From Candidatus Aldehydirespiratoraceae bacterium (GTDB lineage Bacteria > Actinomycetota > Acidimicrobiia > Acidimicrobiales > Aldehydirespiratoraceae): 64,000 nt of DNA. The notes beneath the pieces are model-generated. The model made no database searches. It was given only the letters and a program-made list of their open reading frames with translations, and was not told the origin of the DNA. Where the stretch lies: assembly GCA_965243715.1 (NCBI GenBank), contig CBDEVU010000018.1, forward strand, positions 18,473-82,472, given 5' to 3'. Below, one piece after another: positions 24,875 to 62,072 of the stretch; position 1 is the first letter of the stretch, and the number at the start of each line of letters is the position of its first letter. A program made the position numbers and the translations under genes.

Positions 24875-25561
24875 ATGAGACAATTCCTTTCCTCTAACCT
24901 CAAGTGGTTGCTCCCCGCGGGAGCGGTGGCGGTTGTTGTGGTGGCCTATCTCGCCTTCTCCGTCTTTGCCGTTCATACCTTCTTCATCGACAAGGAGGTC
25001 GCCGAAGCAATGCCCGTGTTCGCGTCTGGCGCCTCGGAAACCGACGTCGAAGTCGAGGCAATGAGTGAAGCCGAGGCAATGAGTGAAGTCGAGGTGATGA
25101 GTGAAGTCGAGGAGACTGAAGAAGCCAGTGCTGATGAAGCCAGTGCTGAAGAAGCCAGTGGTATAGGAACGGTTCCCGAGGAGCCTGTGGCCGATAATGC
25201 CCCAGCGGAAGCCACCACGGTAACCGTGGAGTATGCCGGCGATTTTGTCGACCGTAGCCACCCATCGGCGGGTGTGGCGTCGGTTCTCGGCGACGGTTCC
25301 GGTCAGCGCTTCGTTCGCTTCGAGAACTTCGAAACCGACAATGGCCCTGATCTCAACGTCTATCTTTCGACCGCTCCGCCGGACGCGCCAGCGGGAGATT
25401 TCGATGATGACTTCATCGACCTTGGCGACCTCAAAGGAAACGTGGGCCCACAAAACTACGAGATCCCCGAAGGTACCGATCTCGAGCGCTACTCAACGGT
25501 CGTGATCTGGTGCGTACGGTTCGGGGTGGCGTTCGGTACCGCCGGTTTGGTGGCCAGCTAG
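24875..25561 (+). CDS. Membrane-anchored DM13-domain protein with an acidic repeat linker
   Basis: N-terminal TM helix and (EAMSEx)n/(EASAx)n repeats. The C-terminal part (GDFVD...RFVRFENFETDNGPDLNVYLS...DLGDLKGNVGPQNYEIP...VVIWCVRFGVAFG) resembles DM13. Confidence 0.65.
   Translation: MRQFLSSNLKWLLPAGAVAVVVVAYLAFSVFAVHTFFIDKEVAEAMPVFASGASETDVEVEAMSEAEAMSEVEVMSEVEETEEASADEASAEEASGIGTVPEEPVADNAPAEATTVTVEYAGDFVDRSHPSAGVASVLGDGSGQRFVRFENFETDNGPDLNVYLSTAPPDAPAGDFDDDFIDLGDLKGNVGPQNYEIPEGTDLERYSTVVIWCVRFGVAFGTAGLVAS
25055..25165. repeat. In-frame tandem repeats: 3 x 18 bp (GAGGCAATGAGTGAAGCC-like), then 3 x 15 bp (GAAGCCAGTGCTGAT-like)
   Basis: Read directly. Lies in the linker of the DM13 protein. 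Confidence 0.9.
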
Positions 25562-26484
25562 CCGTGTTGAGCGAACTGCTCGGTCGGCAATAGGGCATCG
25601 AACCAGGCCCGAAGGGCACGAAGGCGGTAGTCGCGGTGCAGCGATGTCGGCCACGAGAGATAATGACCCGTATTTGGGTTGTGGACCTCAGGGCCCACCT
25701 CGACAAGGAACCCTCGTTCGACCAAGTCGGCGCGGAGGTACCGCCAACTCAAAATCACCCCATTGCCACTGATGGCCTGCTGCATCAAGGTGGAATAATT
25801 GTCGAACCGCATCCGGTTGTTGGGTTCGTGGTATTCGATTCCGTGCCCGGCGAACCACTCGGGCCACGACATCCATGCGCGTCCCACTCGATCGACATGA
25901 AGCAAAGGAGCGTCGAGCAGTTCGTGGGGCGACGAATCGGGTCCGAGTCCTAGACGCTCGGCGACGTACGGGGCGGCGACCGGTACGACGATCTCGGGGA
26001 CGAGTCGCTGGGATCGGTAACCGGGCCATTCACGGTAGCCAGCGCGGATCGTAACGTCGTAGCTGGCGGTGTCGAGTTCGGCGTCGCGATCGAAAATTAT
26101 GATGAACACCTCGCAAGGGTCGAGGGCGGCGTGGAGGCTGTCGATATTCGGAGCTAGCCAGGTCTGTGCGACACTCGGCTGGGAGGCGATAGTGAGCCGG
26201 TCCGTGGCCTTTTTAAGATCACCGAGGGTTGCTTCGAGCGTGTCGAAGGCGCCGGTCAACTCGTGATGCAAAGTGCTGCCCTCGCGGGTGAGTTCGATGC
26301 GGTTGGACCGGCGCTGGAACAGTAAAAAACCGAGTTGCGTTTCCAGCGTGCTGACGTGCTTAGACACCGCGGGCTGGGAGATACCGAGGTCTTCGGCGGC
26401 CGCGGTGAAGGATCCGTGGCGGCCTACGGCCTCAAAGACCGCGAGGCGCTGAAGTTGAGGTATCCGTTCGAGTAGTAACCGCAT
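25558..26484 (-). CDS. LysR-family transcriptional regulator, divergent from mcl-mtkAB-ppc (QscR-like position)
   Basis: HTH (LQRLAVFEAVGRHGSFTAAAEDLGISQPAVSKHVSTLETQLG) plus an LTTR effector domain. Confidence 0.85.
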   Translation of the reverse strand: MRLLLERIPQLQRLAVFEAVGRHGSFTAAAEDLGISQPAVSKHVSTLETQLGFLLFQRRSNRIELTREGSTLHHELTGAFDTLEATLGDLKKATDRLTIASQPSVAQTWLAPNIDSLHAALDPCEVFIIIFDRDAELDTASYDVTIRAGYREWPGYRSQRLVPEIVVPVAAPYVAERLGLGPDSSPHELLDAPLLHVDRVGRAWMSWPEWFAGHGIEYHEPNNRMRFDNYSTLMQQAISGNGVILSWRYLRADLVERGFLVEVGPEVHNPNTGHYLSWPTSLHRDYRLRALRAWFDALLPTEQFAQHG

Positions 26485-26516
26485 AACCGACTCCAGAACT
26501 CTGCCGAAGAAGGCAT

Positions 26517-26533
26517 TATAACCTGGGGTTATA
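26517..26533. promoter_or_regulatory. Inverted repeat TATAACC-TGG-GGTTATA (contains T-N11-A); candidate LTTR box between lysR and mcl
   Basis: Perfect 7-bp arms seen in the sequence, about 35 bp from the lysR start and about 60 bp from the mcl ATG. Function is inferred. Confidence 0.4.
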
Positions 26534-26590
26534 GGGAGTAGTTAGAAATCGCCTATGTGGCTCGAGACAGCGTATCTCTACGCTTAGAGC

Positions 26591-27544
26591 ATGAGTCACA
26601 CGCAGTATGCAACCGTCCGGCCTCGGCTCCATCGCAGCGAGTTGGCCGTACCTGGTTCGAACCCCAGCCTGTTCGCCAAGGCGCTCGAGTCCGACGTGGA
26701 TTACGTGTTCTTGGACCTAGAGGACGCGGTGGCTCCTGGCGACAAAGTCCAGGCTCGCGCCAACGTGATCGAAGCCTTGAACACGCTCGATTGGCGCGGC
26801 GCGGGCAAGACAATCTCGGTGCGTATCAACGGCCTCGATACCCACTATATGTATCGCGATGTCGTTGAGGTCGTTGAACAAGCGGGTCACCACCTCGACA
26901 CCATCTTAATCCCGAAGGTCGGCGTCCCCGGCGATGTGTACATGGTCGATGCCATGTGCAGTCAGATCGAAACGGTGATCGGTCGCAAAGGCCAGATCGG
27001 ACTCGAAGCCCTCATCGAAACCACGCTGGGCATGGCCAACGTCGAAGCCGTCGCCCAGTCGAGTCCGCGCCTTGAAGCCATGCACTTCGGTGTCGCGGAC
27101 TATGCCGCGTCGTGTCGAGCGCGCACGGTGGTGATCGGCGGCTTGAACCCCAACTATCCCGGCGATCAGTGGCATGATGGTCTCTCTCGGATGCTGGTGG
27201 CCTGTCGGGCCTACGGGTTGCGCGCCATCGATGGACCCTTTGGCGACTTCAACGATCCCGACGGTTTCATCGCTGGGGCCCGCCGAGCCGCCGCCCTCGG
27301 CTACGAAGGCAAGTGGGCTATCCATCCGGCGCAGATTGACCTCGCCAACGAGGTCTTTTCGCCGCCCGCGGAGGAAGTTGACCGAGCTCGTCGGATACTC
27401 GCCGCCCTCGACGAAGCGGCGGCCGCGGGCAAGGGTGCGGCGCAGCTCGAGGGTCGCATGATCGACGCGGCCTCGGCGCGGATGGCCCAAAACGTTGTCG
27501 ACACCGCAACGGCCATCGAAAACCGTCCCGTCCCGTCCCGTTAA
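26591..27544 (+). CDS. mcl: L-malyl-CoA/beta-methylmalyl-CoA lyase (HpcH/CitE family)
   Basis: Very close by eye to my recollection of Methylobacterium MclA: RLHRSELAVPGSNP, FLDLEDAVAP, RINGLDTHYMYRDVV, ILIPKVGVPGDVY, LIETTLGMANVEA, FGVADYAAS, MLVACRAYGLRAIDGPFGDFNDPDG, GKWAIHPAQIDLANEVF. Confidence 0.85.
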   Translation: MSHTQYATVRPRLHRSELAVPGSNPSLFAKALESDVDYVFLDLEDAVAPGDKVQARANVIEALNTLDWRGAGKTISVRINGLDTHYMYRDVVEVVEQAGHHLDTILIPKVGVPGDVYMVDAMCSQIETVIGRKGQIGLEALIETTLGMANVEAVAQSSPRLEAMHFGVADYAASCRARTVVIGGLNPNYPGDQWHDGLSRMLVACRAYGLRAIDGPFGDFNDPDGFIAGARRAAALGYEGKWAIHPAQIDLANEVFSPPAEEVDRARRILAALDEAAAAGKGAAQLEGRMIDAASARMAQNVVDTATAIENRPVPSR

Positions 27545-27574
27545 ACCTCGTCGTAGGCAAAGGAGCATCCTCTC

Positions 27575-28750
27575 ATGGATATTCACGAATATCAGGCGAA
27601 GAGCATTCTTCGTGACTACGGAATTGCCACACCCAACGGCGGCCTTGCGTACAGCCCCGACCAAGCGGTGTACCAGTCGCAGGAACTAGGCGGCGACCGC
27701 TGGGTCGTGAAGGCCCAAGTCCATACCGGTGGACGAGGTCAGGCGGGCGGGATCAAGATATGCGGAGATGACGAAGAGGTCTACGAAGCGGCCGAGGGCC
27801 TGCTGGGGAAGCGACTCATCACCCCGCAGACTGGCCCTCGGGGCAAGGGTGTCTACCGTCTCTACATCGAAGAAGCGTCGTCGATTGCGAGCGAGTTGTA
27901 TCTCGCCTTGGTGCTCGATCGGTCGGCTGAACGGATTGTTTGCGTGGCCTCCTCTGCCGGGGGCATGGAGATTGAGCAGATCGCCGAGCACTCGCCGGAG
28001 GCCATCCATCGCACCGCTATCGAGCCTGCGGTTGGATTGCAGAACTTTCAGGCTCGCAACCTAGCGTTCGCCATCGGTCTCGATAAGCAACTCGTGCAGC
28101 CGTGGTCGACCATCTTGACCCAGGCATACCGAGCTTTCCGTGACCTCGACGCAACCCTGCTTGAGATCAATCCCCTCGTTGTGACCGACGACAATCGCCT
28201 CCTAGCGGTGGACGCCAAGATGTCGTTCGACGACAACGCCACGTTCCGCCACCCAAGGATTTCGGAGTTTCGCGACAAGTCGCAGGAAGATCCTCGGGAG
28301 CGCGAGGCGAACGATCGAGGGTTGAGTTACGTCGGACTCGACGGAAACATTGGCTGCATCATCAACGGGGCAGGGTTGGCGATGGCGACGATGGACATGA
28401 TCAAACACTCGGGAGGGGAGCCCGCCAACTTCTTAGACATTGGGGGCGGGGCGTCCCCCGAACGGGTCACGAAAGCGTTCAAGTTGGTGCTGTCCGACGG
28501 CAATGTTGAAGCAGTCCTAGTGAACATTTTCGCGGGGATTAACCGTTGCGACTGGGTTGCCCAAGGGGTAGTGCAAGCCATGGAAACTCTCGACGTTCAG
28601 GTCCCCGTCGTTGTGCGCCTTTCGGGGACCAACGCGGCGGAGGGTAAGCGCATTCTTGATGAAAGCGGGATTGGCCTAATGACCGCGCAAACCCTCGCAG
28701 AAGCAGGTCAAAAGGCCGTGGACGTCACCAAAGAAGGAGTCCGACCATGA
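27575..28750 (+). CDS. mtkA: Malate-CoA ligase (malate thiokinase) beta subunit; succinyl-CoA synthetase beta paralog
   Basis: ATP-grasp SucC-like ([35 protein letters not shown]). Called mtkA because of the mcl-X-X-ppc context, which matches the serine-cycle operon composition. Confidence 0.7.
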
Positions 28751-29646
28751 GCATCGTCGTCGACCAAAACACCAGAGTCCTAGTGCAGGGTATAACCGGT
28801 CGCCTCTGTAGTTTTCACACCGAGGACATGCTGGCGTACGGTACCAATGTCGTGGGGGGTGTTACGCCGGGGCGATCGGGCGAGCAAGTCCACGGTGTTC
28901 CCGTCTTCGACACCGTTCGAGAGGCGGTGGGCGTGACGGGCGCAACAGCCAGCATCGTCTTCGTGCCGCCGCCGTTCGCGGCCGATGCCATCATGGAAGC
29001 CGCCGATGCGGGGATCAAGACGTGCGTGTGTATTACCGACGGTATCCCCGTGCAGGACATGATGAACGTCAAGCGCTACATGATGCGCTACCGTCGCGAT
29101 GATCGAATGCAGTTGATCGGGCCGAACTGTGCTGGCGTCATTAGCCCCGGTCGAGCTCTCTTGGGGATCATGCCCAGCCACATTTTCATGGAAGGAAACG
29201 TGGGCGTTATTGGGCGTTCGGGCACACTCGGCTACGAAGCGGCGAGCCAGATGTTGGAACTCGGGATCGGCATTAGTACCAGCGTGGGTATTGGCGGCGA
29301 TCCCATCAACGGAAGCTCGTTTCGAGATCACCTCGAAGCATTCGAGAACGACGGAGCAACTGACCTCGTCGTGGTGATCGGGGAGATCGGCGGTCCCCAG
29401 GAAGCGGAGGCCGCTGAGTACGCTAGGGACCACATGACCAAACCGTTGGTTGCCTATATTGCGGGTCTCACCGCGCCCGCCGGTCGAACCATGGGCCATG
29501 CGGGTGCCATTGTCACCACGCGCGGTGAGTCGGCGGCGGAGAAGGTGGAGATCCTTCGGGCTTGCGGTGTCACCGTGGTGGAGCGGCCATCGGAGTTCGG
29601 GCCGACGGTTCAGGCCGCGCTCGCCCGACTGAACGCACCCGTTTGA
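28747..29646 (+). CDS. mtkB: Malate-CoA ligase alpha subunit; SucD paralog
   Basis: SucD-like ([32 protein letters not shown] phosphohistidine loop). ATGA overlap with mtkA. Confidence 0.7.
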
Positions 29647-29647
29647 C

Positions 29648-32347
29648 ATGATGGCGTCGGCCGTGACCGATCCAAAGGTGACCGACATCGAACTGCGGTC
29701 TGATATTCGACGCCTGACCGAACAACTCGGTCAGGCCATCGCCAACCATCACGGTGCGGGGGCCCTTGATACTGTTGAGCGGTTACGTCGGTTGGTCCGA
29801 GAGGAGCGCAGCGGCGACCACTCGGCGGTGGGACGCATCGCGGTCATGCTGGGCGAACTCTCGGTGCGAGACGCCACCTTGGTGGTGCGGGCGTTCACGC
29901 TGTACTTCCATCTCGCTAACGTGGCTGAGCAATCACATCGAGTTGATGACTTTGCCGCCACCGATCCGCGTGCGGCCGACCGAATTGGCGCCATGATTGA
30001 GCGCCTAATTGACCACGACATCGACCCTGAAGAGATTGGTGATCTGTTCTCTCGCCTCGTCCTTCGTCCGGTGTTTACCGCTCATCCCACCGAGGCCACG
30101 CGGCGATCCATTCTGACCAAACAGGCGACCCTGTCGAGTTTGTTGCATGACCGGCGCACCGGCGCACCGACCCGCCGTATCGACCAGCGCATCGCCGAAC
30201 TAATCGACGCGATGTGGCACACCGACGAACTCCGCGCCGTCCGCCCCGACCCGATCGAAGAAGCTCGCTTCGTTCTCAACTATCTCGTGCGGACGATCAG
30301 CGACATCGTGCCGGAGGTGGTTGACGAACTTGGCTCCGTTCTCGCCCTTCACCAGATCGATTGGCGCGACAACCTCGCCCCAGTGCGGTTTGGGTCGTGG
30401 GTCGGTGGTGATCGCGACGGTAACCCTAACGTCACCCCGGAGGTCACGCTCCGGGTGCTGGACCTGCATCGTGATCAGGCCCTTGAACTCGTAACCGACG
30501 AACTCGAACGCCTGGCATCCTTTTTGAGTTTGTCCGATCGGGTGGCGTCCATGAGCGCCGAACTTTTGGCAAAAGCGGTGGCGGACCGCGAGGACTACCC
30601 CGAGTTTCTCGCCGAGGTAAACTACGCCGAGCCGTATCGGGTCTGCTGTGCGGTGGCGGTGGGCCGACTCCAGGCGATGCGCGCCGACGAAGCTTCGGCG
30701 CGTCGCTACGAGTCGACCGACGAGCTAACTGAACTACTTGAACTGTTCGATCGGTCGCTGCGTGAACACGGGGGAAGCGAGTTGGCCGATGGGCGCCTGG
30801 CCAGGACCCGCCGTCTCGTCGCGGCGGCGGGCTTTTCCATCGCCGCGCTCGACATACGTCATCATGGCGACGTTCAGCGAGCCTCCTTGGACCGCTTGTT
30901 GGGCGATGTCGGGTTGGACCTAACCGGGTTATCCGAGGAGTCACGGGCCGCGATTATTGGCCGAGAACTGGCGCAACCCCGCCCACTGACTTTCCCGATG
31001 ACTGCTACCGATGACGATTCGTTGGCCCTTTTCCGCAGCCTTCGCATCGCCTACGAACGTGATCCGGCCTGTCTTGGGAGTTTCATTGTTTCGATGACTC
31101 GGTCGGCGACGGACATCCTCACTACGGTGATTCTCGCTCGAGAAACCGGGTTGGTCGATCTCGCCGCGGGTCGAAGTGCGTTTGACTTCGTGCCGCTACT
31201 GGAGACCATCGCCGATCTTCAAGCCACACCAACGATCCTCCGCCAACTTCTCACGAACCCGCAATACCGCCAAATCGTCGAAATTCGTGGCGGAGTGCAA
31301 GAAGTAATGGTCGGCTATTCCGATTCGAACAAGGACGGCGGCATCACCACCAGCCAGTGGGAGATTCACAAAACGCTAAGCGATCTGCGGGACTTGGCGG
31401 TGGAGTTAGAGGTCGACATTCGGGTCTTTCACGGGCGGGGAGGCAGCATCGGCCGCGGTGGCGGGCCCACACACTCGTCGATTCTGAGTCAACCAAGCGG
31501 CCTGCTCGACGGTGGGGTGAAGTTCACCGAGCAAGGAGAAGTGATCGCCGAAAAGTACGGCCTACCGGAACTCGCCTTCCGCAACCTCGAACTCGGACTG
31601 TCCGCCCTCATCGAAGGTTCACTCGCCCACCAGACATCGCGTATCGAAGGCGAACAGAAGCGCCGGTGGTACGAGATCATGGACCTTGCTTCGGCGCGGG
31701 CGGAGGCGGCCTATCGGCGGTTCGTTCACCGCCCGGGTTTCGTGGAGTACTTCACCAGTTCCACTCCCGTGGAGGAGTTGGCTGGCATGAATATTGGTTC
31801 GCGACCCGCTCGGCGTCGATCGGATTCGGCCGGACTGGACGACCTGCGGGCCATCCCGTGGGTATTTGGTTGGACTCAGTCCCGCCAAATCATCCCCGGC
31901 TGGTTCGGCGTGGGCACGGCCCTGGAGGCGGCCCGAGAGGCGGGCTACGGCGTGGAACTGCGGCGGATGTACAACGACTGGCATTTCTTCTATGGCTTTA
32001 TCTCAGGCGTGGAGTTGATGGTGGCCAAGACCGACCTGAAGATCGCTCGGAAGTACGTGGAGACGCTGGTTGAACCAGAGCATCGCCATCACTTCGACAC
32101 TGTGGTTGATGAGTATGAACTCACCAAGCGTGAACTCAGGCGCATCGTTGGGGCGGAGGCTTTGCAGCACGCGCCCCTCCTGCGCCGCTCGCTCGACGTC
32201 CGTGACATCTACCTCGATCCCATCAATTTGATCCAGATCGAACTGCTCCAACGGTTCCGCTCCGGTGAGGCTCCGTCGGAGTCACTCAACCGGGCCCTGC
32301 TTTCGACGATCAACGGCATCGCCGCGGGGATGCGCAATACCGGATAG
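29648..32347 (+). CDS. ppc: Phosphoenolpyruvate carboxylase
   Basis: 899 aa. VFTAHPTE, GYSDSNKDGG, FHGRGGSIGRGGGP and C-terminal INGIAAGMRNTG motifs. Confidence 0.95.
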   Translation: MMASAVTDPKVTDIELRSDIRRLTEQLGQAIANHHGAGALDTVERLRRLVREERSGDHSAVGRIAVMLGELSVRDATLVVRAFTLYFHLANVAEQSHRVDDFAATDPRAADRIGAMIERLIDHDIDPEEIGDLFSRLVLRPVFTAHPTEATRRSILTKQATLSSLLHDRRTGAPTRRIDQRIAELIDAMWHTDELRAVRPDPIEEARFVLNYLVRTISDIVPEVVDELGSVLALHQIDWRDNLAPVRFGSWVGGDRDGNPNVTPEVTLRVLDLHRDQALELVTDELERLASFLSLSDRVASMSAELLAKAVADREDYPEFLAEVNYAEPYRVCCAVAVGRLQAMRADEASARRYESTDELTELLELFDRSLREHGGSELADGRLARTRRLVAAAGFSIAALDIRHHGDVQRASLDRLLGDVGLDLTGLSEESRAAIIGRELAQPRPLTFPMTATDDDSLALFRSLRIAYERDPACLGSFIVSMTRSATDILTTVILARETGLVDLAAGRSAFDFVPLLETIADLQATPTILRQLLTNPQYRQIVEIRGGVQEVMVGYSDSNKDGGITTSQWEIHKTLSDLRDLAVELEVDIRVFHGRGGSIGRGGGPTHSSILSQPSGLLDGGVKFTEQGEVIAEKYGLPELAFRNLELGLSALIEGSLAHQTSRIEGEQKRRWYEIMDLASARAEAAYRRFVHRPGFVEYFTSSTPVEELAGMNIGSRPARRRSDSAGLDDLRAIPWVFGWTQSRQIIPGWFGVGTALEAAREAGYGVELRRMYNDWHFFYGFISGVELMVAKTDLKIARKYVETLVEPEHRHHFDTVVDEYELTKRELRRIVGAEALQHAPLLRRSLDVRDIYLDPINLIQIELLQRFRSGEAPSESLNRALLSTINGIAAGMRNTG

Positions 32348-32421: not shown

Positions 32422-33201
32422 ATGTCCCACGTGCAAGCCGTCGATCGAGCGCTGCTCCTACTTAGCGAAATAGGCCGAGAGTCTGGCGGATTGGTCGACC
32501 TCGCGAGCCGTGTCGATTTGGCCACGAGCACAGCGGCTCGGCTGTTGAATACCCTGGAGTCGGCAGGTGCCGTTCGCCGCAGCGACGACGCGAGCTACGA
32601 GATCGGTCCGCTGATCCAGTCCCTGACCGCCGCGCCCGAAGGTAGCCAGCGCCTAGAGCAACTAGTTCATCCCCACCTCGTCGAACTATCTACTCAACTT
32701 GATGAAGCGGCGTGCCTTGCTTTGATCTCTGGTGACGAAACCGTCACCGTCGATCAGGTTGACGCCCCCAAGCCGGTCCAGGCCGAGAACTGGACGGGAA
32801 CCCGCGTCCCCCTTCACGCTGGGGGAGCGGGTCTGGTCGCCATGGCAACCTGGGACGACGTGGAGGTCGAGCGCTACCTAAGCGGCGAACTCGTGGCGTG
32901 CTCTGCCCTCACTGTCACCGACCCGGCAAAGCACCGGTGCCGCCTCGAGGAGATCCGTCGCACCGGCGTGTGTTGGACGCACGGCGAATACGTCGAAGGT
33001 CTATCCTCGCTGTCGGCGGCCATCCAAGATGTGTCGGGTCGAGCGGTGGCCGTGCTCTACACCTACGGGCCGAGCTATCGCTATCCCGCGCCCGGGTCGG
33101 CCGAAAAGGTGGCTCGCACCGTCTGGGCCCGTGCTGAACGCATCTCCATCCAACTGGGCTGGACGGGTTCGCTTACACCAGTGCGAAACGAGGCTTCGTG
33201 A
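32422..33201 (+). CDS. IclR-family transcriptional regulator
   Basis: N-terminal wHTH (VQAVDRALLLLSEIG...LVDLASRVDLATSTAARLLNTLESAGAVRR) plus an IclR effector domain. Confidence 0.85.
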   Translation: MSHVQAVDRALLLLSEIGRESGGLVDLASRVDLATSTAARLLNTLESAGAVRRSDDASYEIGPLIQSLTAAPEGSQRLEQLVHPHLVELSTQLDEAACLALISGDETVTVDQVDAPKPVQAENWTGTRVPLHAGGAGLVAMATWDDVEVERYLSGELVACSALTVTDPAKHRCRLEEIRRTGVCWTHGEYVEGLSSLSAAIQDVSGRAVAVLYTYGPSYRYPAPGSAEKVARTVWARAERISIQLGWTGSLTPVRNEAS

Positions 33202-34760
33202 CCGAGGTTCGCTCTTCTACCGGCACGGGAACCAAGCGGAAACGTGGTGGGGGTCGTCGCCAACGTCCTGCGGCGCCGGTTGGCCCGCCGCAACGGCCCT
33301 GGCAACTCTACCGCCGCCCGATTGAGGCCACCAAGGTTGTGTCAGAGGATGAACTCGAGAACATTCATCAGACTTCGCTCATCGTGCTGCGCGACATTGG
33401 CCTGGATTTTTTGCATCCCACGGCGCGCAAGATGTGGGCTGAGGCGGGGGCTAAGGTTGACGACGAGCGGGTTCGATTCGATCCCGCCCTCATCGAAGAC
33501 CTCGTTGCTTCGGCGCCGAGCGAGTTCGTGATGTACGGGCCGGATCCTGCCTACGACATTCACGTCGGCGGCGACAGCGTGGTGTTCACCGCCGTGGCCA
33601 GCGCCCCGAACTATGCCGATCGGGCGGGGGGTCGTCGTACTGGTAGTCAGGAGAGCTTTCGCACACTGGTGAAGTTGTGTCATCAACTTCACATCATCCA
33701 GAGCTTGCCTGGTTACCCGGTTGAGCCGATTGATCTCCACCCGTCGATCCGTCACCTTGAAGCTACCCGCGACATGCTGACCCTCACCGGCAAGGCCGTA
33801 CACGCCTACTCCCTGGGGAAGCAGCGCAACCTGGACTGTCTCGAAATGGTGCGGATTCGGCGCGGCCTTAGCGAGGACGAAATCGATACCCATCCCATTG
33901 TGCATTCGGTCGTTAACGTCAGTTCACCGTTGCGACTCGACGGTCCAATGATCGAGGGAATACTGCAGTTTTCGGCTCGTAACCAGCCCATTATTGTCAC
34001 GCCGTTCACCCTGGCGGGAGCAATGGCCCCAGTCACGATTGTAGGAGCCGTCGTACAGCAAAACGCCGAAGCCCTCGCCGGACTTGCCTTTTGCCAACTG
34101 GTTCGCCGCGGCTCGCCGGTGGTGTATGGCGGATTCACTTCCAACGTCGACATGCGCAGCGGGGCGCCCGCGTTTGGGACTCCTGAGTTCATGCAGTCGG
34201 CGATGCTCGGCGGCCAGCTAGCGCGGCGCTATAACTTGCCGTATCGCAGTTCTAACGTGTGTACTGCCAACACCATCGATGCCCAAGCGGGCTACGAGAG
34301 TGTGTTTTCGCTCTGGGGCGCGATCATGGGCGGGGCCAACATAGTTCTCCATGGTGCGGGCTGGATGGAAGGCGGACTGCAGGCCAGTCCGGAAAAGATG
34401 GTGATTGACGCCGACCTGCTCCAGATGGTGGCGACCTTCTTGCAACCGCTCATCGTCGACGACGCAACTATGGCGGTCGAAGCAATCGTCGACGTCGGCC
34501 CCGGCGGGCACTTCTTTGGCACCCAGCACACCCAGGATCGTTACCGAGACGCCTTCTACCGTCCCATGATCTCTGACTGGCGAAATTATGAAAGCTGGGA
34601 AGAAGCGGGTAGTCCAACGGCTTACGACCACGCCGAACGGGTCGCCCGAGACCTGCTCTCCACCTACGAACCACCACCCATAGACACCGCGGTGCGGGCC
34701 GAACTTGACGATTTCGTCGAGCGGCGAATCGCCGAGGGCGGTGTCGACACCGACTTTTAG
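33198..34760 (+). CDS. MttB-superfamily (non-Pyl) methyltransferase, copy 2 (intact)
   Basis: 520 aa, collinear with copies 1 and 3. No in-frame TAG. GTG start overlaps the iclR stop (GTGA). Confidence 0.85.
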   Translation: MTEVRSSTGTGTKRKRGGGRRQRPAAPVGPPQRPWQLYRRPIEATKVVSEDELENIHQTSLIVLRDIGLDFLHPTARKMWAEAGAKVDDERVRFDPALIEDLVASAPSEFVMYGPDPAYDIHVGGDSVVFTAVASAPNYADRAGGRRTGSQESFRTLVKLCHQLHIIQSLPGYPVEPIDLHPSIRHLEATRDMLTLTGKAVHAYSLGKQRNLDCLEMVRIRRGLSEDEIDTHPIVHSVVNVSSPLRLDGPMIEGILQFSARNQPIIVTPFTLAGAMAPVTIVGAVVQQNAEALAGLAFCQLVRRGSPVVYGGFTSNVDMRSGAPAFGTPEFMQSAMLGGQLARRYNLPYRSSNVCTANTIDAQAGYESVFSLWGAIMGGANIVLHGAGWMEGGLQASPEKMVIDADLLQMVATFLQPLIVDDATMAVEAIVDVGPGGHFFGTQHTQDRYRDAFYRPMISDWRNYESWEEAGSPTAYDHAERVARDLLSTYEPPPIDTAVRAELDDFVERRIAEGGVDTDF

Positions 34761-34782: not shown

Positions 34783-36051
34783 ATGACGGCAACCGACCGG
34801 CCGGCAACCGACCGGCCGAGAACCGACTGGACGAACAACGATGCTTGGCGCGGTACACGCGCCGACCTGCATAAAGCCACCGGCCTCAATCCCGACTGCT
34901 ACGCGGGGGAGGAGTTCTTTGCCCTCGAACAAGTTCGAGTCTTCGAGCGGGCGTGGGTCATAGTTGGTACCTCCCCAGAGGTCGCAGAACCGGGCCGCCT
35001 GCTCGTGCGTCGGGTGGGGCGCCGTTCGATCCTGATTAGCCGAGACAACGAGGGCGTACTGCGGGGCTTCTACAACACCTGTCGCCACCGAGGGACAGAG
35101 TTAGCCGAAGCCGACTGCGATGTCGCTGGCACAATCCGGTGCCCCTACCACCGCTGGAGCTACGGACTGGACGGCGTGCTGAAAGCTACGCCGCGGTTCG
35201 ATGACGTGCCGCGCCAGGACTTCAACCGGTCGGACTTCTCGCTGCTTGGCGTGCGGGTCGACACTTGGGGACCACTCCTGTTCGCCTGTCTCGATGCCGA
35301 GACCCCGCCGCTGGCGGAATGGCTGGGCGATTTGCCCGAACGAATGGCTGGCTATGGTTTCGAGAGTTGGCGAATCCAAGAAGAAGCCACGGTCGAGATA
35401 GCGGCGAACTGGAAGCTGATCTCGGAGAACTTCCAAGAGTACTATCACCTCACCTGGGTACATCCCGAGTTGGCCAAGATCAGCCGGGTGAAGGATCACT
35501 ATCGTTACCAAGGGCCTGGCATGTACTGCGGCCAGACCACGACCCCGGTGACCGGCGCCGCTGGTGACGCTTGGCTGGTACTACCGGTAGCCGAGGGACT
35601 CGACGAGTCCGATGCCACAAGCGGTCGACACCTCGCCATCTACCCCAACGTCATCTTCTCGGTGTTACCAAACCACGTGTTCGTCATGCGCCTTGAGCCG
35701 ATCGCGCCCGGCCTTACCCGAGAGACCTGTACCTTTTTGCTACCGGCGTCAACCCCACCGGTTACCGCTGACGACATGGCCGCCACCCGTGACTTCTGGA
35801 TAGATATCAACAACGAAGACATCGATATCTGTCAACGAGGCCAACGGGGCCTTACTTACGGCCACATCGAACCCGGCCCGCTGGCCCCCCGCTTCGAACA
35901 ACCCCTCCACCGGTTCCACAACATGCTCGCCGATTGCTTGACCGCCGATTCGCTCCAAACCGGCCTCACTATTCCTGCGGGCGACGACGGTTCTTTAGCA
36001 TCGCGCCTAGGAACGAAAGCAAATCCCTGCCCGCCCCAGATCGAAAAGTAG
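34783..36051 (+). CDS. Rieske 2Fe-2S non-heme-iron oxygenase alpha subunit (GbcA/Stc2/CntA-like N-demethylase candidate)
   Basis: Rieske motif CRHRGTEL...CPYHRWSY. The catalytic domain carries NFQEYYHLTWVHP. Start taken at ATG 34783. Confidence 0.8.
   Translation: MTATDRPATDRPRTDWTNNDAWRGTRADLHKATGLNPDCYAGEEFFALEQVRVFERAWVIVGTSPEVAEPGRLLVRRVGRRSILISRDNEGVLRGFYNTCRHRGTELAEADCDVAGTIRCPYHRWSYGLDGVLKATPRFDDVPRQDFNRSDFSLLGVRVDTWGPLLFACLDAETPPLAEWLGDLPERMAGYGFESWRIQEEATVEIAANWKLISENFQEYYHLTWVHPELAKISRVKDHYRYQGPGMYCGQTTTPVTGAAGDAWLVLPVAEGLDESDATSGRHLAIYPNVIFSVLPNHVFVMRLEPIAPGLTRETCTFLLPASTPPVTADDMAATRDFWIDINNEDIDICQRGQRGLTYGHIEPGPLAPRFEQPLHRFHNMLADCLTADSLQTGLTIPAGDDGSLASRLGTKANPCPPQIEK
34788..34830. 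repeat. 15-bp tandem repeat (GGCAACCGACCGGCC x2 plus a degenerate third unit) encoding ATDRP-ATDRP-RTD at codons 3-16 of the Rieske gene
   Basis: Read directly. Confidence 0.85.
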
Positions 36052-36063
36052 AAGGTAGTCCTA

Positions 36064-38619
36064 ATGAGTCCCGCGATGAAAACCAGTGTTCCGGTCGTGG
36101 TCATCGGCGGGGGTGTGGTCGGCGCTTCGGTTCTGTACCACTTAACTAAAAAGGGTTGGACCGATGTCGTCCTTCTTGAACGAACCGAGTACACCGCCGG
36201 TTCCACTTGGCATTCCGCGGGCGGAATGCATACCCTTAACGGTGATCCGAATGTAGCAAAACTTCAGCAGTACACGATCGACCTGTACAAGGAGATCTTG
36301 GAAGAGTCTGGCCTTGACGCCTCGATGCATCTCACCGGCGGTGTGATGCTGGCCGACACCGCCGAGCGTATGGATTGGCTGAAAATGAGCCACGCTCGGG
36401 GGCGTTATCTCGGGATGGAAACAGAATTGCTCTCCGCCGCCGAGGCCAAGGAGTTGGTACCGATCATCGACGAGCAGTACTTCGTGGGAGCCATGTGGGA
36501 CGCCAACGAAGGTCACCTCGATCCCAGCCAGATCACCCACGCTTACCTCGAGTGCGCTCGCCTGCGAGGGGCTCAAACCCATCGCCACTCGTGGGTCCGT
36601 GACATCACCCGCGCGGCGGACGGCGGATGGAACCTCACCGTTTACGACACCAACTCCAATGAGGACCAAGCCCTTGTCCACTGCGAGCACGTGGTCAACG
36701 CAGGGGGCCTATGGGCTCGTGAAGTCGGCCGCATGGTTGGCCTCGAACTCCCGCTACTCGCCATGGAGCACATGTACCTGCTAACCGAGGAGATCCCCGA
36801 GGTGGCGGAACTCACCCGGCGAGAAGGCAAGGAACTCATGCACGTCATCGACTTCGGTGGTGAGATCTATATGCGCCAAGAAGGCAACGGCTTGCTTCTC
36901 GGGACCTATGAGCGGGGCGGTAAGCCGTGGTCACCCAAAGTGACCTCGTGGGAGTTCGGCGCCCGTCTGCTGACCCCCGACATCGAACGCATCGCCGAGT
37001 CCCTCGACATCGGCTTCAAGCACTTCCCCGTCTTTGCTGAAGCCGGTATCAAAAAGGTCATCAACGGTCCCTTCACGTTCGCTCCCGACGGCAATCCGCT
37101 GTTGGGTCCGGTGCGGGGCCTGCCCGGCTACTGGTCGGCTTGCGCGGTTATGGCGGGGATCTCGCAGGGAGGTGGCGTCGGCCTAAGCCTCGCCAACTGG
37201 ATCACCGAAGGCGATCCCGGTTTCGATATTTGGGGGATGGATATTGCCCGTTACGGCGATTACTCCACCATGGCCTACACGAACGAAAAGGTGCGCGAGA
37301 ACTACTCACGGCGTTTCCAGATCACCTTCCCGAATGAGTTCTTGCCCCAGGCTCGCAACGTTCAGACATCACCAATATTTGATCTCTTAACGGCCAAGAA
37401 TGCGGTTTTTGGAGCAAGTTTTGGCCTAGAAGCGGCGCTGTGGTTCCAAGCCGAAGGCGAAGAACCGGTAGAGGAGGTCACCTTCGGCCGATCGAATGGC
37501 TGGGACCAGGTCCGCGCCGAGACCCTAGCCGTTCGTTCGAGCGTCGGCCTGTGGGAGACTACGGGCTTTTCTAAGTTCCGGTTCTCCGGGCCTGGAGCCC
37601 GGGCCTATCTTGATCGACTGCTGGCCGGTCGAATCCCGAACCCCGGTCGCCTGGCGCTCACCCCCATGACCAACGAGCGGGGCAACCTTATTGGTGACCT
37701 CACCGTCGCCACTCTGCCGGGCGCGGAAGGCGAAGCCGAAGGACCAGAACGCACCATCACTGGCGGGGCGACCGGCAACACTAGGGCCACGGAGGAGTTC
37801 GTGCTTTTCGGTTCGGGGATCGCCGAGCGGTACTACGAGCGTTGGTTTGATCAGCACCTTCTCGATGACAACTCGGTGCGTTACGACACGCTTGGTTTCG
37901 AGATGTGCGGGTTGTCCATCGCCGGACCCAACAGTCGGGCGCTGCTCGAAAAGGTCACCGATGCTGATGTCAGCCAAAACGGTATGCGGTTCATGTCCTT
38001 CCAGGAGATCACGATCGGCCTAGCGCCGGTGTGGTGCGGGCGGGTGACGTTCACCGGCGATCTGGGTTATGAGTTCTGGATGCCGGCCCGCTATCAGCGC
38101 TACGTCTATCAGACCTTGCTCGATGCGGGAGAGGAGTTCGACCTCGCCGTGTTCGGGCTTCATGCCCTTAACTCGTTACGCTTGGAGAAGAGTTTTGGCT
38201 CGTGGGCTCGAGAGTACCGACCGATCTATGACCCGTTCGAGGCCAACCTCGGTCGCTTTGTTCAGCTAGGCAAGGACTTCATCGGCCGCGACGCCCTCGC
38301 GGCGAAGTACGCCGAGGACGGCCCAGGCGCCACCCACCAACTCATCACGCTCATCGTCGACAGCGAACCCGGGCGGGCCGGGGTCGACGTGATCGGCGAC
38401 GAACCAATCTGGCGCAACGACGAAGTCGTTGGCTGGGTAACGTCGGGCGGTTTCGCCCACCACAGCAACGTCTCGGTAGCCCTCGGCTACATAGCGACAA
38501 TCCTAGCCCCAGCGGCCCGGGAGGCAGCTTTTGCGGTGGAGGTCTTGGGGGAGCGTCGGGCGGCGACGCTGGTGGAGGACTGTATTTGGGATAACCACGG
38601 CGAACGCATGCGGAGCTAG
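36064..38619 (+). CDS. Dimethylglycine/sarcosine dehydrogenase-like enzyme: FAD oxidoreductase fused to a GcvT-type tetrahydrofolate-binding domain
   Basis: 851 aa. VVVIGGGVVGASVLYHL, AGSTWHSAGGMH (covalent-FAD His context), and a C-terminal aminomethyltransferase fold (GDLGYEFWMP...). Confidence 0.8.
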   Translation: MSPAMKTSVPVVVIGGGVVGASVLYHLTKKGWTDVVLLERTEYTAGSTWHSAGGMHTLNGDPNVAKLQQYTIDLYKEILEESGLDASMHLTGGVMLADTAERMDWLKMSHARGRYLGMETELLSAAEAKELVPIIDEQYFVGAMWDANEGHLDPSQITHAYLECARLRGAQTHRHSWVRDITRAADGGWNLTVYDTNSNEDQALVHCEHVVNAGGLWAREVGRMVGLELPLLAMEHMYLLTEEIPEVAELTRREGKELMHVIDFGGEIYMRQEGNGLLLGTYERGGKPWSPKVTSWEFGARLLTPDIERIAESLDIGFKHFPVFAEAGIKKVINGPFTFAPDGNPLLGPVRGLPGYWSACAVMAGISQGGGVGLSLANWITEGDPGFDIWGMDIARYGDYSTMAYTNEKVRENYSRRFQITFPNEFLPQARNVQTSPIFDLLTAKNAVFGASFGLEAALWFQAEGEEPVEEVTFGRSNGWDQVRAETLAVRSSVGLWETTGFSKFRFSGPGARAYLDRLLAGRIPNPGRLALTPMTNERGNLIGDLTVATLPGAEGEAEGPERTITGGATGNTRATEEFVLFGSGIAERYYERWFDQHLLDDNSVRYDTLGFEMCGLSIAGPNSRALLEKVTDADVSQNGMRFMSFQEITIGLAPVWCGRVTFTGDLGYEFWMPARYQRYVYQTLLDAGEEFDLAVFGLHALNSLRLEKSFGSWAREYRPIYDPFEANLGRFVQLGKDFIGRDALAAKYAEDGPGATHQLITLIVDSEPGRAGVDVIGDEPIWRNDEVVGWVTSGGFAHHSNVSVALGYIATILAPAAREAAFAVEVLGERRAATLVEDCIWDNHGERMRS

Positions 38620-57494: not shown

Positions 57495-58412
57495 TCAGTC
57501 GGTGACTTCCCATGGCGCGACCCACTCGCCCGCCATGCGAAAGGAGAGCCCGGCATCGTCCTCCAGACGTTTAGCCACATGAAGTTCGCCCGCGTCGCGG
57601 CCGTAGCGCTCGGCGGCTTCGGCAAAAACCCCTTGGGCGGCATCGGTCATCACTAGGTCGCGGCCCACATGGCGCGCCAAGTCGCCGATGAGCCTGAGGT
57701 CTTTGAGACACAGGTCGAGCGTGAACGAGGGGTCGTAGTGGCCAGCAAAGATCGATGGGCCATCGTGGCGGGCTACGAATGAGTCGCCGACCGAGTCGCA
57801 GATCGCGTCGTAGAGGACCGACAATTCGACCCCGTTGGCCATACCCAGCGCGAAACCTTCGCCGATCGCCGCGGCGTGGATGAACCACAATTGGTTGGTG
57901 ACGAGTTTCACGACGTTTCCCGTGCCGAGTCCGCCACAGCGGATGACGCGTCCCATGGTTTCGAGTACGGGAGTGACTCGGTCGAGATCGGCGTCGCGGC
58001 CGCCCGCGAAGAGGGTAAGTCGACGATTGCGGGCCCCGTCAACGGCGCCGGTAACGGGTGAGTCGACGACGGTGACACCTTCGGGGGCTTCGTCGGCCAG
58101 TGCCTGCACGACCTCGCGTCGATTCGTGGTGAGATCCGCCCATAGCGATCCGGGCCGTAGCGCGGCGAGGGCGCCGCTGGCGCGCATTACCGCTTCGACA
58201 TGATCCGGGCGCGGTAGCGAGGTCAACAAGATGTCGGCTTGGGAGGCCACCACGGCAACATCGTTGGCCGTGCTCGCGCCAGCCGCGGTGGCTTCGGCGA
58301 CGGCTTCTGGTCGAAGGTCGAAGGCCACTACAGTAAAGCCCGCCTCGATCAGGTTGAGGCACATGGGGAGTCCCATGTTGCCGAGGCCAATGAACCCGAT
58401 GGTGTCAGTCAC
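57495..58412 (-). CDS. NAD(P)-dependent beta-hydroxyacid dehydrogenase (3-hydroxyisobutyrate/6-phosphogluconate dehydrogenase family)
   Basis: IGFIGLGNMGLPMCLNL Rossmann motif directly after GTG 58412. The longer ORF to 58682 runs into the mttB copy-3 gene. Confidence 0.8.
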   Translation of the reverse strand: MTDTIGFIGLGNMGLPMCLNLIEAGFTVVAFDLRPEAVAEATAAGASTANDVAVVASQADILLTSLPRPDHVEAVMRASGALAALRPGSLWADLTTNRREVVQALADEAPEGVTVVDSPVTGAVDGARNRRLTLFAGGRDADLDRVTPVLETMGRVIRCGGLGTGNVVKLVTNQLWFIHAAAIGEGFALGMANGVELSVLYDAICDSVGDSFVARHDGPSIFAGHYDPSFTLDLCLKDLRLIGDLARHVGRDLVMTDAAQGVFAEAAERYGRDAGELHVAKRLEDDAGLSFRMAGEWVAPWEVTD

Positions 58413-58428
58413 GACGATGCTCGTTTGG

Positions 58429-62048: not shown

Positions 62049-62072
62049 TAGCTGACGTTAGGCTGTGTGGCG

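What the first reader, a model, noticed from the sequence alone, without database searches (positions are those of the whole stretch)
25558..32347. Serine-cycle gene block mcl-mtkA-mtkB-ppc with a divergent LysR regulator in an actinobacterial-type genome
Four genes lie in one + strand run with 1-30 nt gaps: malyl-CoA lyase (near-diagnostic motifs), a SucCD-like ligase pair, and PEP carboxylase. This is the same gene set as the Methylobacterium mtkA-mtkB-ppc-mclA serine-cycle operon. That operon is controlled by the LysR-type regulator QscR. Here a LysR gene is divergent, with a perfect inverted repeat (26517..26533) in between.

The window also contains betaine demethylation genes, which produce methyl-THF and glycine, and a formate dehydrogenase. 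Together these suggest serine-cycle-like assimilation or glyoxylate handling tied to methylated-amine catabolism in a non-proteobacterial host.
Basis: partly seen in the sequence, partly recalled or inferred. Interest (0 to 1): 0.65.

Follow-up and report, generated by a model that had tools for sequence, protein, structure and literature searches.

The report
Serine-cycle gene block in marine-type Acidimicrobiia
An uncultured actinobacterium (Acidimicrobiia) carries genuine malyl-CoA lyase, malate thiokinase and PEP carboxylase genes under its own regulator, right beside betaine-demethylation genes, so it may build biomass from osmolyte methyl groups by a variant serine cycle so far studied in proteobacteria.

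Summary
A LysR gene lies divergent to mcl-mtkA-mtkB-ppc at the stated coordinates, with a perfect inverted repeat between them.

The lyase is a true malyl-CoA lyase. Its best solved relative is Methylobacterium extorquens Mcl (409 bits), against 122 bits or less for CitE. The ligase is malate-CoA ligase, not SucCD. It passes the NCBIfam MtkA cut-off, is 62-68% identical to annotated Mtk and 41% to actinobacterial SucC.

The host is an Acidimicrobiia metagenome genome. Its ppc is actinobacterial-type, and the regulator is GcvA-like, not QscR/CbbR-like.

The dyad ATAAC-N5-GTTAT is invariant in three lineages. In sister lineages it also precedes an operon with an AGXT-type glyoxylate aminotransferase. 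That gene is missing here but present 330 kb away beside tdm, tmm and malate synthase G.

The block runs co-directionally into iclR-mttB-Rieske-DMGDH, and this order is conserved in a sister lineage.

No canonical sga, hpr or gck lies in the window or in any Acidimicrobiia locus. The whole genome could not be scanned.

Best reading, confidence 0.6: this is the glyoxylate-regenerating branch of a variant serine cycle serving betaine-derived C1 units. It is a new variant of a known kind.

The parts
25558..26484 (-). LysR-family regulator, GcvA-like subfamily, divergent from mcl
   Evidence: Pfam HTH_1 plus LysR_substrate. NCBIfam scores: GcvA 188 bits, choline-sulfate regulator 210, CbbR only 43. 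The only PDB hit is GcvA 8Y6U, 121 bits. It keeps the same divergent position at 82% and 70% identity in L095 and L096.
26517..26533 (.). Perfect inverted repeat TATAACC-N3-GGTTATA with core ATAAC-N5-GTTAT (a T-N11-A type LysR box), centred about 66 nt upstream of the mcl ATG
   Evidence: Found. One hit in the window against 0.01 expected. The core is invariant in three lineages while the flanks diverge. A second copy lies 58-72 nt upstream of the unknown-ORF/AGXT-aminotransferase operon in L096 and L097 (exact) and in L095 (one mismatch).
26591..27544 (+). mcl, L-malyl-CoA/beta-methylmalyl-CoA lyase (short-loop type)
   Evidence: The best solved relative is M. extorquens Mcl 5UGR (409 bits), then R. 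sphaeroides Mcl1 (311 bits); CitE proteins score 122 bits or less. It is 60-82% identical to the Mcl encoded beside mtkAB in 80 genomes. It has the same short loop as the Aminobacter and Mesorhizobium Mcl.
27575..28750 (+). mtkA, malate-CoA ligase (malate thiokinase) beta subunit
   Evidence: NCBIfam NF010647 scores 665 bits against a cut-off of 604; the SucC model scores 549. It is 62-68% identical to genes annotated malate--CoA ligase, 54% or less to SucC, and 40-41% to actinobacterial SucC. An NJ tree places it in the Mtk clade.
28747..29646 (+). mtkB, malate-CoA ligase alpha subunit
   Evidence: It matches CoA_binding and Ligase_CoA. The phosphohistidine motif MGHAGA lies at residues 249-254. 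The gene overlaps mtkA by 4 nt. It is 62-76% identical to the alpha subunit encoded beside MtkA in other genomes.
29648..32347 (+). ppc, PEP carboxylase of actinobacterial type
   Evidence: NCBIfam PRK00009 scores 853 bits against a cut-off of 815. Its best match in the plasmid collection is Arthrobacter at 45%; the serine-cycle Ppc of Aminobacter and Paracoccus are about 33%. It is 52-57% identical to the ppc lying divergent to mcl in other Acidimicrobiia, and 80% and 62% to the tandem ppc in the sister lineages L095 and L096.
32422..33201 (+). IclR-family regulator, 74 nt after ppc and overlapping the next gene by 4 nt
   Evidence: Pfam HTH_IclR plus IclR_C. The BhcR model scores 113 bits, below its cut-off. 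It holds the same position in sister lineage L183.
33198..34760 (+). MttB-family (non-pyrrolysine) quaternary-amine methyltransferase
   Evidence: Pfam MTTB, 633 bits. The order ppc-iclR-mttB-Rieske is conserved in L183.
34783..36051 (+). Rieske-type oxygenase alpha subunit (weakly GbcA-like)
   Evidence: Pfam Rieske plus Ring_hydroxyl_A. The GbcA model scores 161 bits, below its cut-off. The start coordinate follows the deposited gene call.
36064..38619 (+). Dimethylglycine/sarcosine dehydrogenase-like protein (FAD domain plus GcvT domain)
   Evidence: DAO, FAO_M, GCV_T and GCV_T_C domains.
38626..39933 (+). M24-family protein, DddP-like, last gene of the co-directional run
   Evidence: The NCBIfam DddP model scores 448 bits, below its cut-off of 600.
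24875..25561 (+). DM13-domain gene. It occupies the place where sister lineages carry the AGXT-type aminotransferase and a small unknown ORF
   Evidence: Pfam DM13. L093-L095, L183 and L096 have aminotransferase - unknown ORF (105-118 aa) - LysR at this position. The window has no tblastn remnant of either gene.
57495..63942 (-). Corrinoid-dependent betaine-type demethylase operon. Transcription order: corrinoid protein (runs off the window), DUF1638, a 116-aa ORF, pterin methyltransferase, RACo, MttB, beta-hydroxyacid dehydrogenase
   Evidence: It is comparable to the MtgBCD system described for Ruegeria pomeroyi (PMC12478193).

Best explanation
**What the block encodes.** It encodes PEP carboxylase, malate thiokinase (MtkAB) and L-malyl-CoA lyase. 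With malate dehydrogenase these convert PEP + CO2 to oxaloacetate, malate, malyl-CoA, and finally glyoxylate + acetyl-CoA. This is the glyoxylate-regenerating branch of the serine cycle.

**Regulation.** The block is probably transcribed from a promoter controlled by the divergent GcvA-like LysR protein, acting through the conserved dyad ATAAC-N5-GTTAT.

**The aminotransferase.** In sister lineages the same dyad also precedes an AGXT-type aminotransferase. That enzyme would turn glyoxylate into glycine, the acceptor for methylene-THF. This genome has lost the local copy but keeps a 75% identical one beside tdm, tmm and malate synthase G.

**Link to betaine catabolism.** The block runs directly into betaine-type demethylation genes. 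One betaine yields three C1 units but only one glycine. The module would supply the extra glycine needed to assimilate those methyl groups into serine rather than burn them, with acetyl-CoA as net product.

**Shown:** enzyme family identities, operon-like spacing, conserved synteny, and the conserved dyad.

**Inferred:** the direction of flux, the regulator's role and effector, C1 assimilation itself, and the route from serine back to PEP.
For: - **Enzyme identities.** Mcl; MtkA above the curated equivalog cut-off and inside the Mtk clade; MtkB with its phosphohistidine motif; Ppc.
- **Known company.** mcl-mtkA-mtkB is the commonest order among 160 related loci. In Proteobacteria and Gemmatimonadota these genes sit with sga, hpr, gck, glyA, folD and mtdA. 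The relatives include Aminobacter sp. NyZ550, where the serine cycle has genetic support (PMC13199381).
- **ppc linkage.** In Acidimicrobiia a native-type ppc is linked to mcl-mtkAB in two different arrangements, tandem and divergent. This argues for selection on the combination.
- **Aminotransferase linkage.** The AGXT-type aminotransferase lies next to or within 6 kb of the block in L002, L003, L006, L083-86, L093-97, L105 and L183. It is preceded by the same dyad in L095, L096 and L097.
- **Betaine linkage.** The order ppc-iclR-mttB-Rieske is conserved in L183. MttB or DMGDH-like genes flank the block in L001, L002, L006 and L103.
- **Precedent.** Growth of Ruegeria pomeroyi on glycine betaine raises MtgBCD, serine-cycle proteins and SdaA (PMC12478193).
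Against: - No hydroxypyruvate reductase (2-hydroxyacid dehydrogenase type), glycerate kinase, Sga-type aminotransferase, glyA, folD or mtdA was found in the window or within 10 kb of the block in any Acidimicrobiia locus.
- The rest of the 2.8 Mb genome could not be scanned, so the completeness of the cycle is unknown.
- The genome also encodes malate synthase G. Together with Mtk and Mcl it would form an ATP-wasting loop unless the two are separately regulated.
- In this genome the aminotransferase is not under the dyad.
- There are no expression, enzyme or labelling data.
Confidence: 0.6

Rival explanations
1. **Reverse operation, as an ATP-conserving malate synthase.** Glycine released from betaine is transaminated to glyoxylate. 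Mcl condenses glyoxylate with acetyl-CoA to malyl-CoA. Mtk, running backwards, releases malate and makes ATP. Ppc is simply anaplerotic.
For: Mcl is reversible, and in Rhodobacter it acts in the condensing direction (general knowledge of Mcl1). The neighbourhood produces glycine. AGXT-type transaminases are reversible.
Against: The genome already has malate synthase G next to the aminotransferase. In characterised systems Mtk works towards malyl-CoA (PMC6162302, PMC2948502). The tight, repeatedly evolved linkage of ppc to mtkAB fits PEP-to-glyoxylate flux better.
Confidence: 0.15
2. **Glycine and serine supply only.** The block makes glyoxylate, and hence glycine, from central C3/C4 metabolites. 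It serves as a biosynthetic or acceptor-balancing route without net C1 assimilation; the C1 units are mostly oxidised for energy.
For: The regulator is GcvA-like. Formate dehydrogenase subunits are in the window. SAR11 oxidises such C1 units rather than assimilating them (PMC3160333).
Against: This reading overlaps mechanistically with the best explanation. Once glycine accepts methylene-THF, carbon is assimilated. The co-directional link to demethylation genes points to C1 handling.
Confidence: 0.15
3. **Ordinary TCA-cycle genes.** The ligase is the housekeeping succinyl-CoA synthetase, sitting with a CitE-like lyase of other function and an anaplerotic ppc.
For: The alpha subunit matches only SucD models in NCBIfam, and the beta subunit also scores 549 bits on the SucC model.
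Against: The beta subunit exceeds the curated MtkA cut-off and falls in the Mtk clade. It is 41% identical to actinobacterial SucC against 62-68% to Mtk. The lyase is 409 bits to M. extorquens Mcl against 122 or less to CitE.
Confidence: 0.03
4. **Part of an ethylmalonyl-CoA or 3-hydroxypropionate-type pathway.** Mcl acts as a beta-methylmalyl-CoA lyase, working with the methylmalonyl-CoA mutase genes at 3007-5953.
For: Mcl enzymes are bifunctional (name of 5UGR). MCM, MeaB and an acyl-CoA dehydrogenase are in the window.
Against: Mtk is not part of those pathways. The deposited Pfam gene tables list no crotonyl-CoA carboxylase/reductase or mesaconyl-CoA hydratase families in the source-genome or relatives' loci; this was read off the tables, not searched for directly. 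The MCM genes are 20 kb away on the other strand.
Confidence: 0.05

Closest known systems
Methylobacterium extorquens AM1 serine-cycle operon sga-hpr-mtdA-fch-mtkA-mtkB-ppc-mclA with QscR (type V cluster in PMC13199381)
   Same: It contains the same four genes, mtkA, mtkB, ppc and mcl. The window's Mcl scores 409 bits against the M. extorquens Mcl structure 5UGR. Both are controlled, or presumably controlled, by a LysR-type regulator.
   Different: The gene order here is mcl-mtkA-mtkB-ppc, with no sga, hpr, mtdA or fch alongside. The regulator is adjacent, divergent and GcvA-like; QscR is distal and CbbR-like (PMC13199381). The Mcl is the short-loop type. The Ppc is actinobacterial-type, about 33% identical to the serine-cycle Ppc of Aminobacter and Paracoccus. 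The host is an actinobacterium.
SecR-regulated clusters of Aminobacter, Mesorhizobium and Hyphomicrobium (types I-II: secR-sga-mcl-mtkAB-hpr-ppc), PMC13199381
   Same: They share the mcl-mtkA-mtkB core order and the short-loop Mcl. MtkA is about 64% identical. They serve methylamine-derived C1 units.
   Different: There is no SecR-type response regulator here: no window protein joins that cluster. There is no Sga-type aminotransferase, Hpr or Gck. The regulator is a LysR protein with its own dyad.
Glycine betaine catabolism of Ruegeria pomeroyi (MtgBCD with THF C1 pathway, serine cycle and SdaA), PMC12478193
   Same: Both combine a corrinoid-dependent MttB-family demethylase system with serine-cycle enzymes. 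The window holds the RACo, pterin methyltransferase and MttB genes, and the corrinoid protein gene lies at its edge.
   Different: In Ruegeria the connection comes from proteomics. Here it is physical clustering and conserved synteny in Acidimicrobiia, with no expression data.
[quoted passage not shown]
   Same: The recognisable enzyme set matches: Ppc, Mtk and Mcl plus an alanine-glyoxylate-type aminotransferase. The best PDB hit of the aminotransferase is AGT 1VJO at 314 bits, against 157 for plant SGAT.
   Different: That pathway is synthetic. Whether this organism has serine dehydratase plus PEP synthase or PPDK, and whether it lacks Hpr and Gck, was not testable here.

Membership tests
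Malate-CoA ligase (Mtk), as distinct from succinyl-CoA synthetase | The beta subunit scores above the curated equivalog cut-off of the MtkA model | tested here: met
   NF010647 scores 665 bits against a cut-off of 604; the SucC model scores 549.
Malate-CoA ligase (Mtk), as distinct from succinyl-CoA synthetase | It groups phylogenetically with Mtk rather than with the host lineage's SucC | tested here: met
   It is 62-68% identical to genes annotated malate--CoA ligase, 54% or less to SucC, and 40-41% to actinobacterial SucC. An NJ tree agrees.
Malate-CoA ligase (Mtk), as distinct from succinyl-CoA synthetase | The alpha subunit has the catalytic phosphohistidine | tested here: met
   The motif MGHAGA lies at residues 249-254.
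Malate-CoA ligase (Mtk), as distinct from succinyl-CoA synthetase | The enzyme prefers malate over succinate | not testable with these tools
   This needs an enzyme assay.
L-malyl-CoA/beta-methylmalyl-CoA lyase (Mcl/Mcl1) | It is closer to characterised Mcl than to CitE, CitE-like or Mcl2-type proteins | tested here: met
   5UGR scores 409 bits, 4L9Y 311, the Chloroflexus type 162, and CitE 122 or less.
Serine cycle (complete C1 assimilation pathway) | Mcl, Mtk and Ppc are present and linked | tested here: met
Serine cycle (complete C1 assimilation pathway) | Serine-glyoxylate aminotransferase | tested here: inconclusive
   There is no Sga-type gene in the window. An AGXT-type class V aminotransferase, 32-35% identical to Sga, is present in the genome (P0153). 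It is adjacent to the block in sister lineages. Its substrate is unknown.
Serine cycle (complete C1 assimilation pathway) | Hydroxypyruvate reductase and glycerate kinase | tested here: inconclusive
   No homologue was found in the window or in any Acidimicrobiia locus. A beta-hydroxyacid dehydrogenase at 57495-58412 is a weak candidate.
Serine cycle (complete C1 assimilation pathway) | SHMT, THF-linked C1 interconversion and a glyoxylate-regeneration or acetyl-CoA assimilation route | not testable with these tools
   The genome beyond about 95 kb of this region and 21 kb at L098 was not readable. Malate synthase G is present.
QscR-type regulation | The regulator is a CbbR-homologous LysR protein | tested here: not met
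   The CbbR model scores 43 bits, the GcvA model 188, and the only PDB hit is GcvA. QscR is described as a CbbR homologue (PMC13199381).
SecR-type regulation | An atypical NarL/LuxR-type response regulator lies beside the cluster | tested here: not met
   The response-regulator cluster found in 29 proteobacterial loci has no member in the window.

The most novel reading that the evidence does not exclude
Abundant marine-type Acidimicrobiia run a natural serine cycle that avoids hydroxypyruvate. An AGXT-type aminotransferase makes glycine from glyoxylate. Serine returns to PEP through serine dehydratase and PEP synthase or PPDK. Ppc, Mtk and Mcl regenerate glyoxylate. The cycle is topped up by betaine-derived glycine, so it needs no ethylmalonyl-CoA or isocitrate-lyase module. 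A GcvA-like regulator governs it. This would be a natural counterpart of the pathway engineered in E. coli (PMC6162302), and the first serine-cycle methyl assimilation in Actinomycetota.
Probability: 0.2. Interest if true: 0.75.

Novelty: new variant of a known kind. Interest (0 to 1): 0.52.

Why it matters
Glycine betaine, other betaines, TMAO and DMSP are major carbon, nitrogen and energy currencies in the sea. Whether their methyl groups are respired or built into biomass changes carbon budgets.

The serine-cycle clusters and regulators described so far (QscR, SecR) are proteobacterial (PMC13199381). In my limited searches I found no paper linking Acidimicrobiia to malyl-CoA or serine-cycle genes.

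Close homologues of this Mcl are very numerous in marine metagenomes. Single clusters are seen on up to 131 contigs.

If the module works as proposed, a widespread actinobacterial group assimilates osmolyte methyl carbon. It would do so with a differently assembled and differently regulated serine cycle, built from a native ppc, an AGXT-type aminotransferase and a GcvA-like regulator. That gives a concrete, testable regulon and a possible natural template for synthetic C1 pathways.

Tried and rejected
- **Megablast of the block against plasmids.** It returned only a 53-nt ppc fragment, so there are no near-identical DNA relatives.
- **Rfam scan of the window.** No glycine, THF or cobalamin riboswitch was found. 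The only hit was a marginal PYLIS_3 match inside an uninterrupted MttB ORF.
- **Promoter and terminator scan.** No sigma-70-like site lay in the intergenic region. The terminator-like sites were all inside ppc and fewer than expected by chance, so the scan was uninformative.
- **tblastn for other serine-cycle genes.** I searched the window and all Acidimicrobiia loci with proteobacterial Sga, Hpr, Gck, GlyA, FolD and MtdA. The only hit was the distant AGXT-type aminotransferase.
- **Genome and metagenome scans with MtkA.** The source genome and its closest relatives were not among the 80 loci kept; they were reached through exact-protein look-ups instead.
- **Look-up of the pterin methyltransferase ORF.** It failed because my start codon differed from the deposited gene call. 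The RACo gene worked.
- **Search for the dyad upstream of the aminotransferase in the source genome.** It gave only a 2-mismatch site inside coding sequence, below chance expectation.
- **Pfam on the 114-118 aa ORF of the sister-lineage regulon.** No family matched.
- **A separate sucCD, and hpr or gck, in the source genome.** I could not test these. No tool reads the whole 2.8 Mb contig.

Full report
**Observation**

The ORF map shows a LysR gene at 25558-26484 (-). Four genes follow on the + strand: 26591-27544, 27575-28750, 28747-29646 and 29648-32347.

- The mcl-mtkA gap is 30 nt, mtkA and mtkB overlap by 4 nt, and the mtkB-ppc gap is 1 nt.
- The 106-nt LysR-mcl spacer holds the perfect repeat TATAACC-TGG-GGTTATA at 26517-26533.
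- G+C is an even 0.59-0.64 across the window.

**Host**

- The exact proteins lie on a 2,805,714-bp ENA metagenome contig (ERZ26693861) and on close strain contigs.
- Mcl homologues at 82-84% identity are named Acidimicrobiales bacterium. They are extremely common in marine metagenomes, with single clusters seen on up to 131 contigs.
- The "actinobacterial-type genome" remark is therefore right.

**Enzyme identities**

*Lyase.* Its best solved relative is the M. extorquens malyl-CoA/beta-methylmalyl-CoA lyase 5UGR (409 bits). R. sphaeroides Mcl1 follows at 311 bits, the Chloroflexus type at 162, and CitE proteins at 122 or less. It carries the short loop shared by the Mcl of Aminobacter, Mesorhizobium, Methylomonas and Gemmatimonadales.

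*Ligase beta subunit.*
- It scores 665 bits on the NCBIfam malate-CoA ligase equivalog (cut-off 604), against 549 on SucC.
- A tblastn against plasmids is bimodal. Thirty-four records lie at 60-68% identity, and every listed one that carries an annotation is named malate--CoA ligase. All SucC records are at 54% or less, and actinobacterial SucC at 40%.
- An NJ tree puts it in the Mtk clade, within an Acidimicrobiia subclade.

*Ligase alpha subunit.* It has the MGHAGA phosphohistidine motif.

*Ppc.* It passes its equivalog cut-off. Its best plasmid-collection match is Arthrobacter at 45%, against about 33% for the serine-cycle Ppc of Aminobacter and Paracoccus. A native-type ppc has therefore been joined to mcl-mtkAB.

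**Comparative context of the core genes**

- Scans with MtkA returned 80 genome loci and 80 metagenome loci at 60-73% identity.
- mcl-mtkA-mtkB is the commonest order.
- In Proteobacteria and Gemmatimonadota the core is flanked by an Sga-type aminotransferase, Hpr, glycerate kinase, GlyA, FolD and probably MtdA (named by size and position, no family hit). It is also flanked by a LuxR-type response regulator. That regulator corresponds to the recently described SecR (PMC13199381).
- The Aminobacter sp. NyZ550 plasmid, studied genetically in that paper, has sga-mcl-mtkA-mtkB-hpr-gck.

**The Acidimicrobiia loci are different**

- They never show Sga, Hpr or Gck within 10 kb.
- They carry an actinobacterial-type ppc, either divergent upstream (L001, L003, L083-86, L103-105) or in tandem (the window, L095, L096, L183).
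- They usually carry a 364-365-aa class V aminotransferase next to or within 6 kb of the block.
- That aminotransferase is only 32-35% identical to Sga.
- Its best solved relatives are alanine-glyoxylate and serine-pyruvate aminotransferases (1VJO 314 bits, human AGXT about 238). Plant SGAT scores 157.

**Regulon**

- The two closest lineages have Mcl at 91% and 86% identity to the window's. Their layout is aminotransferase - small unknown ORF (105-118 aa) - LysR, divergent to mcl-mtkA-mtkB-ppc.
- Their LysR proteins are 82% and 70% identical to the window's.
- In an alignment of the spacers, the core ATAAC-N5-GTTAT is invariant while mean column identity is 53%.
- The core occurs once in the window against 0.01 expected.
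- Among the 182 loci held at that point, exact copies in Acidimicrobiia loci lie only in these spacers and 58-72 nt upstream of the unknown-ORF/aminotransferase operon. The second copy is exact in L096 and L097 and has one mismatch in L095. Single exact copies in two unrelated loci, L055 and L155, were not examined.
- The dyad is thus a good candidate LysR box controlling both operons.
- The regulator is GcvA-like. It scores 188 bits on the GcvA model, 43 on CbbR, and its only PDB hit is GcvA. It is not an orthologue of QscR, which is a CbbR homologue (PMC13199381).

**What this genome lost and kept**

- In the window a DM13 gene sits where the aminotransferase and the small ORF lie in sister lineages. 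No remnant of either is left.
- A 75% identical aminotransferase (P0153) lies about 330 kb away on the same contig. Its neighbours are an XRE/cupin regulator, a Tdm-like gene, a Tmm-like flavin monooxygenase, malate synthase G and an ammonium transporter.
- The dyad is not found upstream of that copy.

**Link to methylated amines**

- The block is followed co-directionally, with gaps of 74 nt or less, by iclR, an MttB-family gene, a Rieske oxygenase, a DMGDH-like gene and an M24 protein.
- The order ppc-iclR-mttB-Rieske, and the upstream operon, are conserved in sister lineage L183.
- The window and its flanks also hold the following:
  - a corrinoid/RACo/pterin-methyltransferase/MttB operon;
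  - a third MttB gene;
  - a DmdA-like GcvT protein;
  - ProXWV transporter genes;
  - a second DMGDH-like gene with ETF subunits;
  - formate dehydrogenase subunits.
- In Ruegeria pomeroyi, growth on glycine betaine raises MtgBCD, serine-cycle proteins and serine dehydratase (PMC12478193).

**Interpretation**

The enzyme identities are secure. The pathway-level reading is an inference from clustering, conserved synteny and the shared dyad.

In that reading the block is the glyoxylate-regenerating branch of a serine cycle. It supplies glycine acceptor for betaine-derived C1 units. A betaine gives three C1 units per glycine. Substrate-derived glycine could also replace a dedicated glyoxylate-regeneration module.

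Three things remain open:
- the route from serine to PEP, which could run through hydroxypyruvate or, as in the engineered modified cycle (PMC6162302), through pyruvate;
- the role of malate synthase G;
- whether a separate sucCD exists.

**Novelty**

- The cluster types and regulators described in PMC13199381 are alphaproteobacterial. Binatota have been predicted to use the serine cycle (PMC8262859).
- My searches found no paper connecting Acidimicrobiia with malyl-CoA or serine-cycle genes. The library is limited to open-access text.
- I rate this a new variant of a known kind and of moderate interest.

Noticed in passing
window 346-2963, with L101 8077-12618: The formate dehydrogenase looks split and permuted. 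The molybdopterin catalytic pieces (89 and 543 aa) are encoded upstream of the FdsB-like subunit. The N-terminal Fe-S/Fe4S4 piece (289 aa) comes after it and is followed directly by MeaB on the other strand.
   Followed up: partly
window 58830-58929 (-): An Rfam PYLIS_3 (pyrrolysine insertion sequence of mttB) match just clears the gathering score (39.9 against 38). It lies inside an uninterrupted 515-aa MttB ORF with no in-frame stop. It probably reflects coding-sequence similarity rather than a functional element.
   Followed up: no
L098 7644-14680 (source contig, about 330 kb from the window): This cluster reads XRE/cupin regulator, Tdm-like gene (DUF1989 plus GCV_T), AGXT-type aminotransferase, Tmm-like flavin monooxygenase, malate synthase G. 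It ties glyoxylate and glycine enzymes to trimethylamine/TMAO genes.
   Followed up: partly
L093 7464-7820, L096 5833-6177, L183 9687-10004: A 105-118 aa ORF with no Pfam or NCBIfam match sits between LysR and the aminotransferase, downstream of the second dyad copy. It is 57% identical between lineages and absent from the window.
   Followed up: partly
window 17024-24831: The upstream operon reads LysR, MttB-like, DHDPS-family, aldehyde dehydrogenase, FAD oxidase and two SDR genes. It resembles a hydroxyproline or proline-betaine type catabolic set (my reading from the family names only). It is conserved in L093 and L183.
   Followed up: no
window 15797-16912 (-); L098 1-2462: DUF222/HNH genes (actinobacterial 13E12-repeat type) sit at the edge of the betaine island. 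Three tandem copies lie at the edge of the tdm-tmm cluster. They may mark recombination or mobile hotspots.
   Followed up: no
L083-L086 (marine Acidimicrobiales): In the abundant marine clade, ppc (divergent) and mcl-mtkA-mtkB are embedded within CO-dehydrogenase-type (cox) genes: large, medium and small subunits, plus CoxD, CoxE, CoxF, CoxG and XdhC-like genes.
   Followed up: no
window 57495-58412 (-): A beta-hydroxyacid dehydrogenase of the 3-hydroxyisobutyrate/tartronate-semialdehyde reductase family is the last gene of the corrinoid demethylase operon. It might make glycerate, but its substrate is unknown.
   Followed up: no
window 38626-39933 and 55001-56152: A DddP-like M24 protein scores 448 bits (cut-off 600) and a DmdA-like GcvT protein 290 bits (cut-off 410). 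Both are below threshold, so DMSP use is possible but not established.
   Followed up: no
L062 5483-9144 (Verrucomicrobiia MAG): A LysR gene 32% identical to the window's lies divergent to sga-mtkA. LysR-type control of Mtk clusters may therefore occur in other phyla.
   Followed up: no
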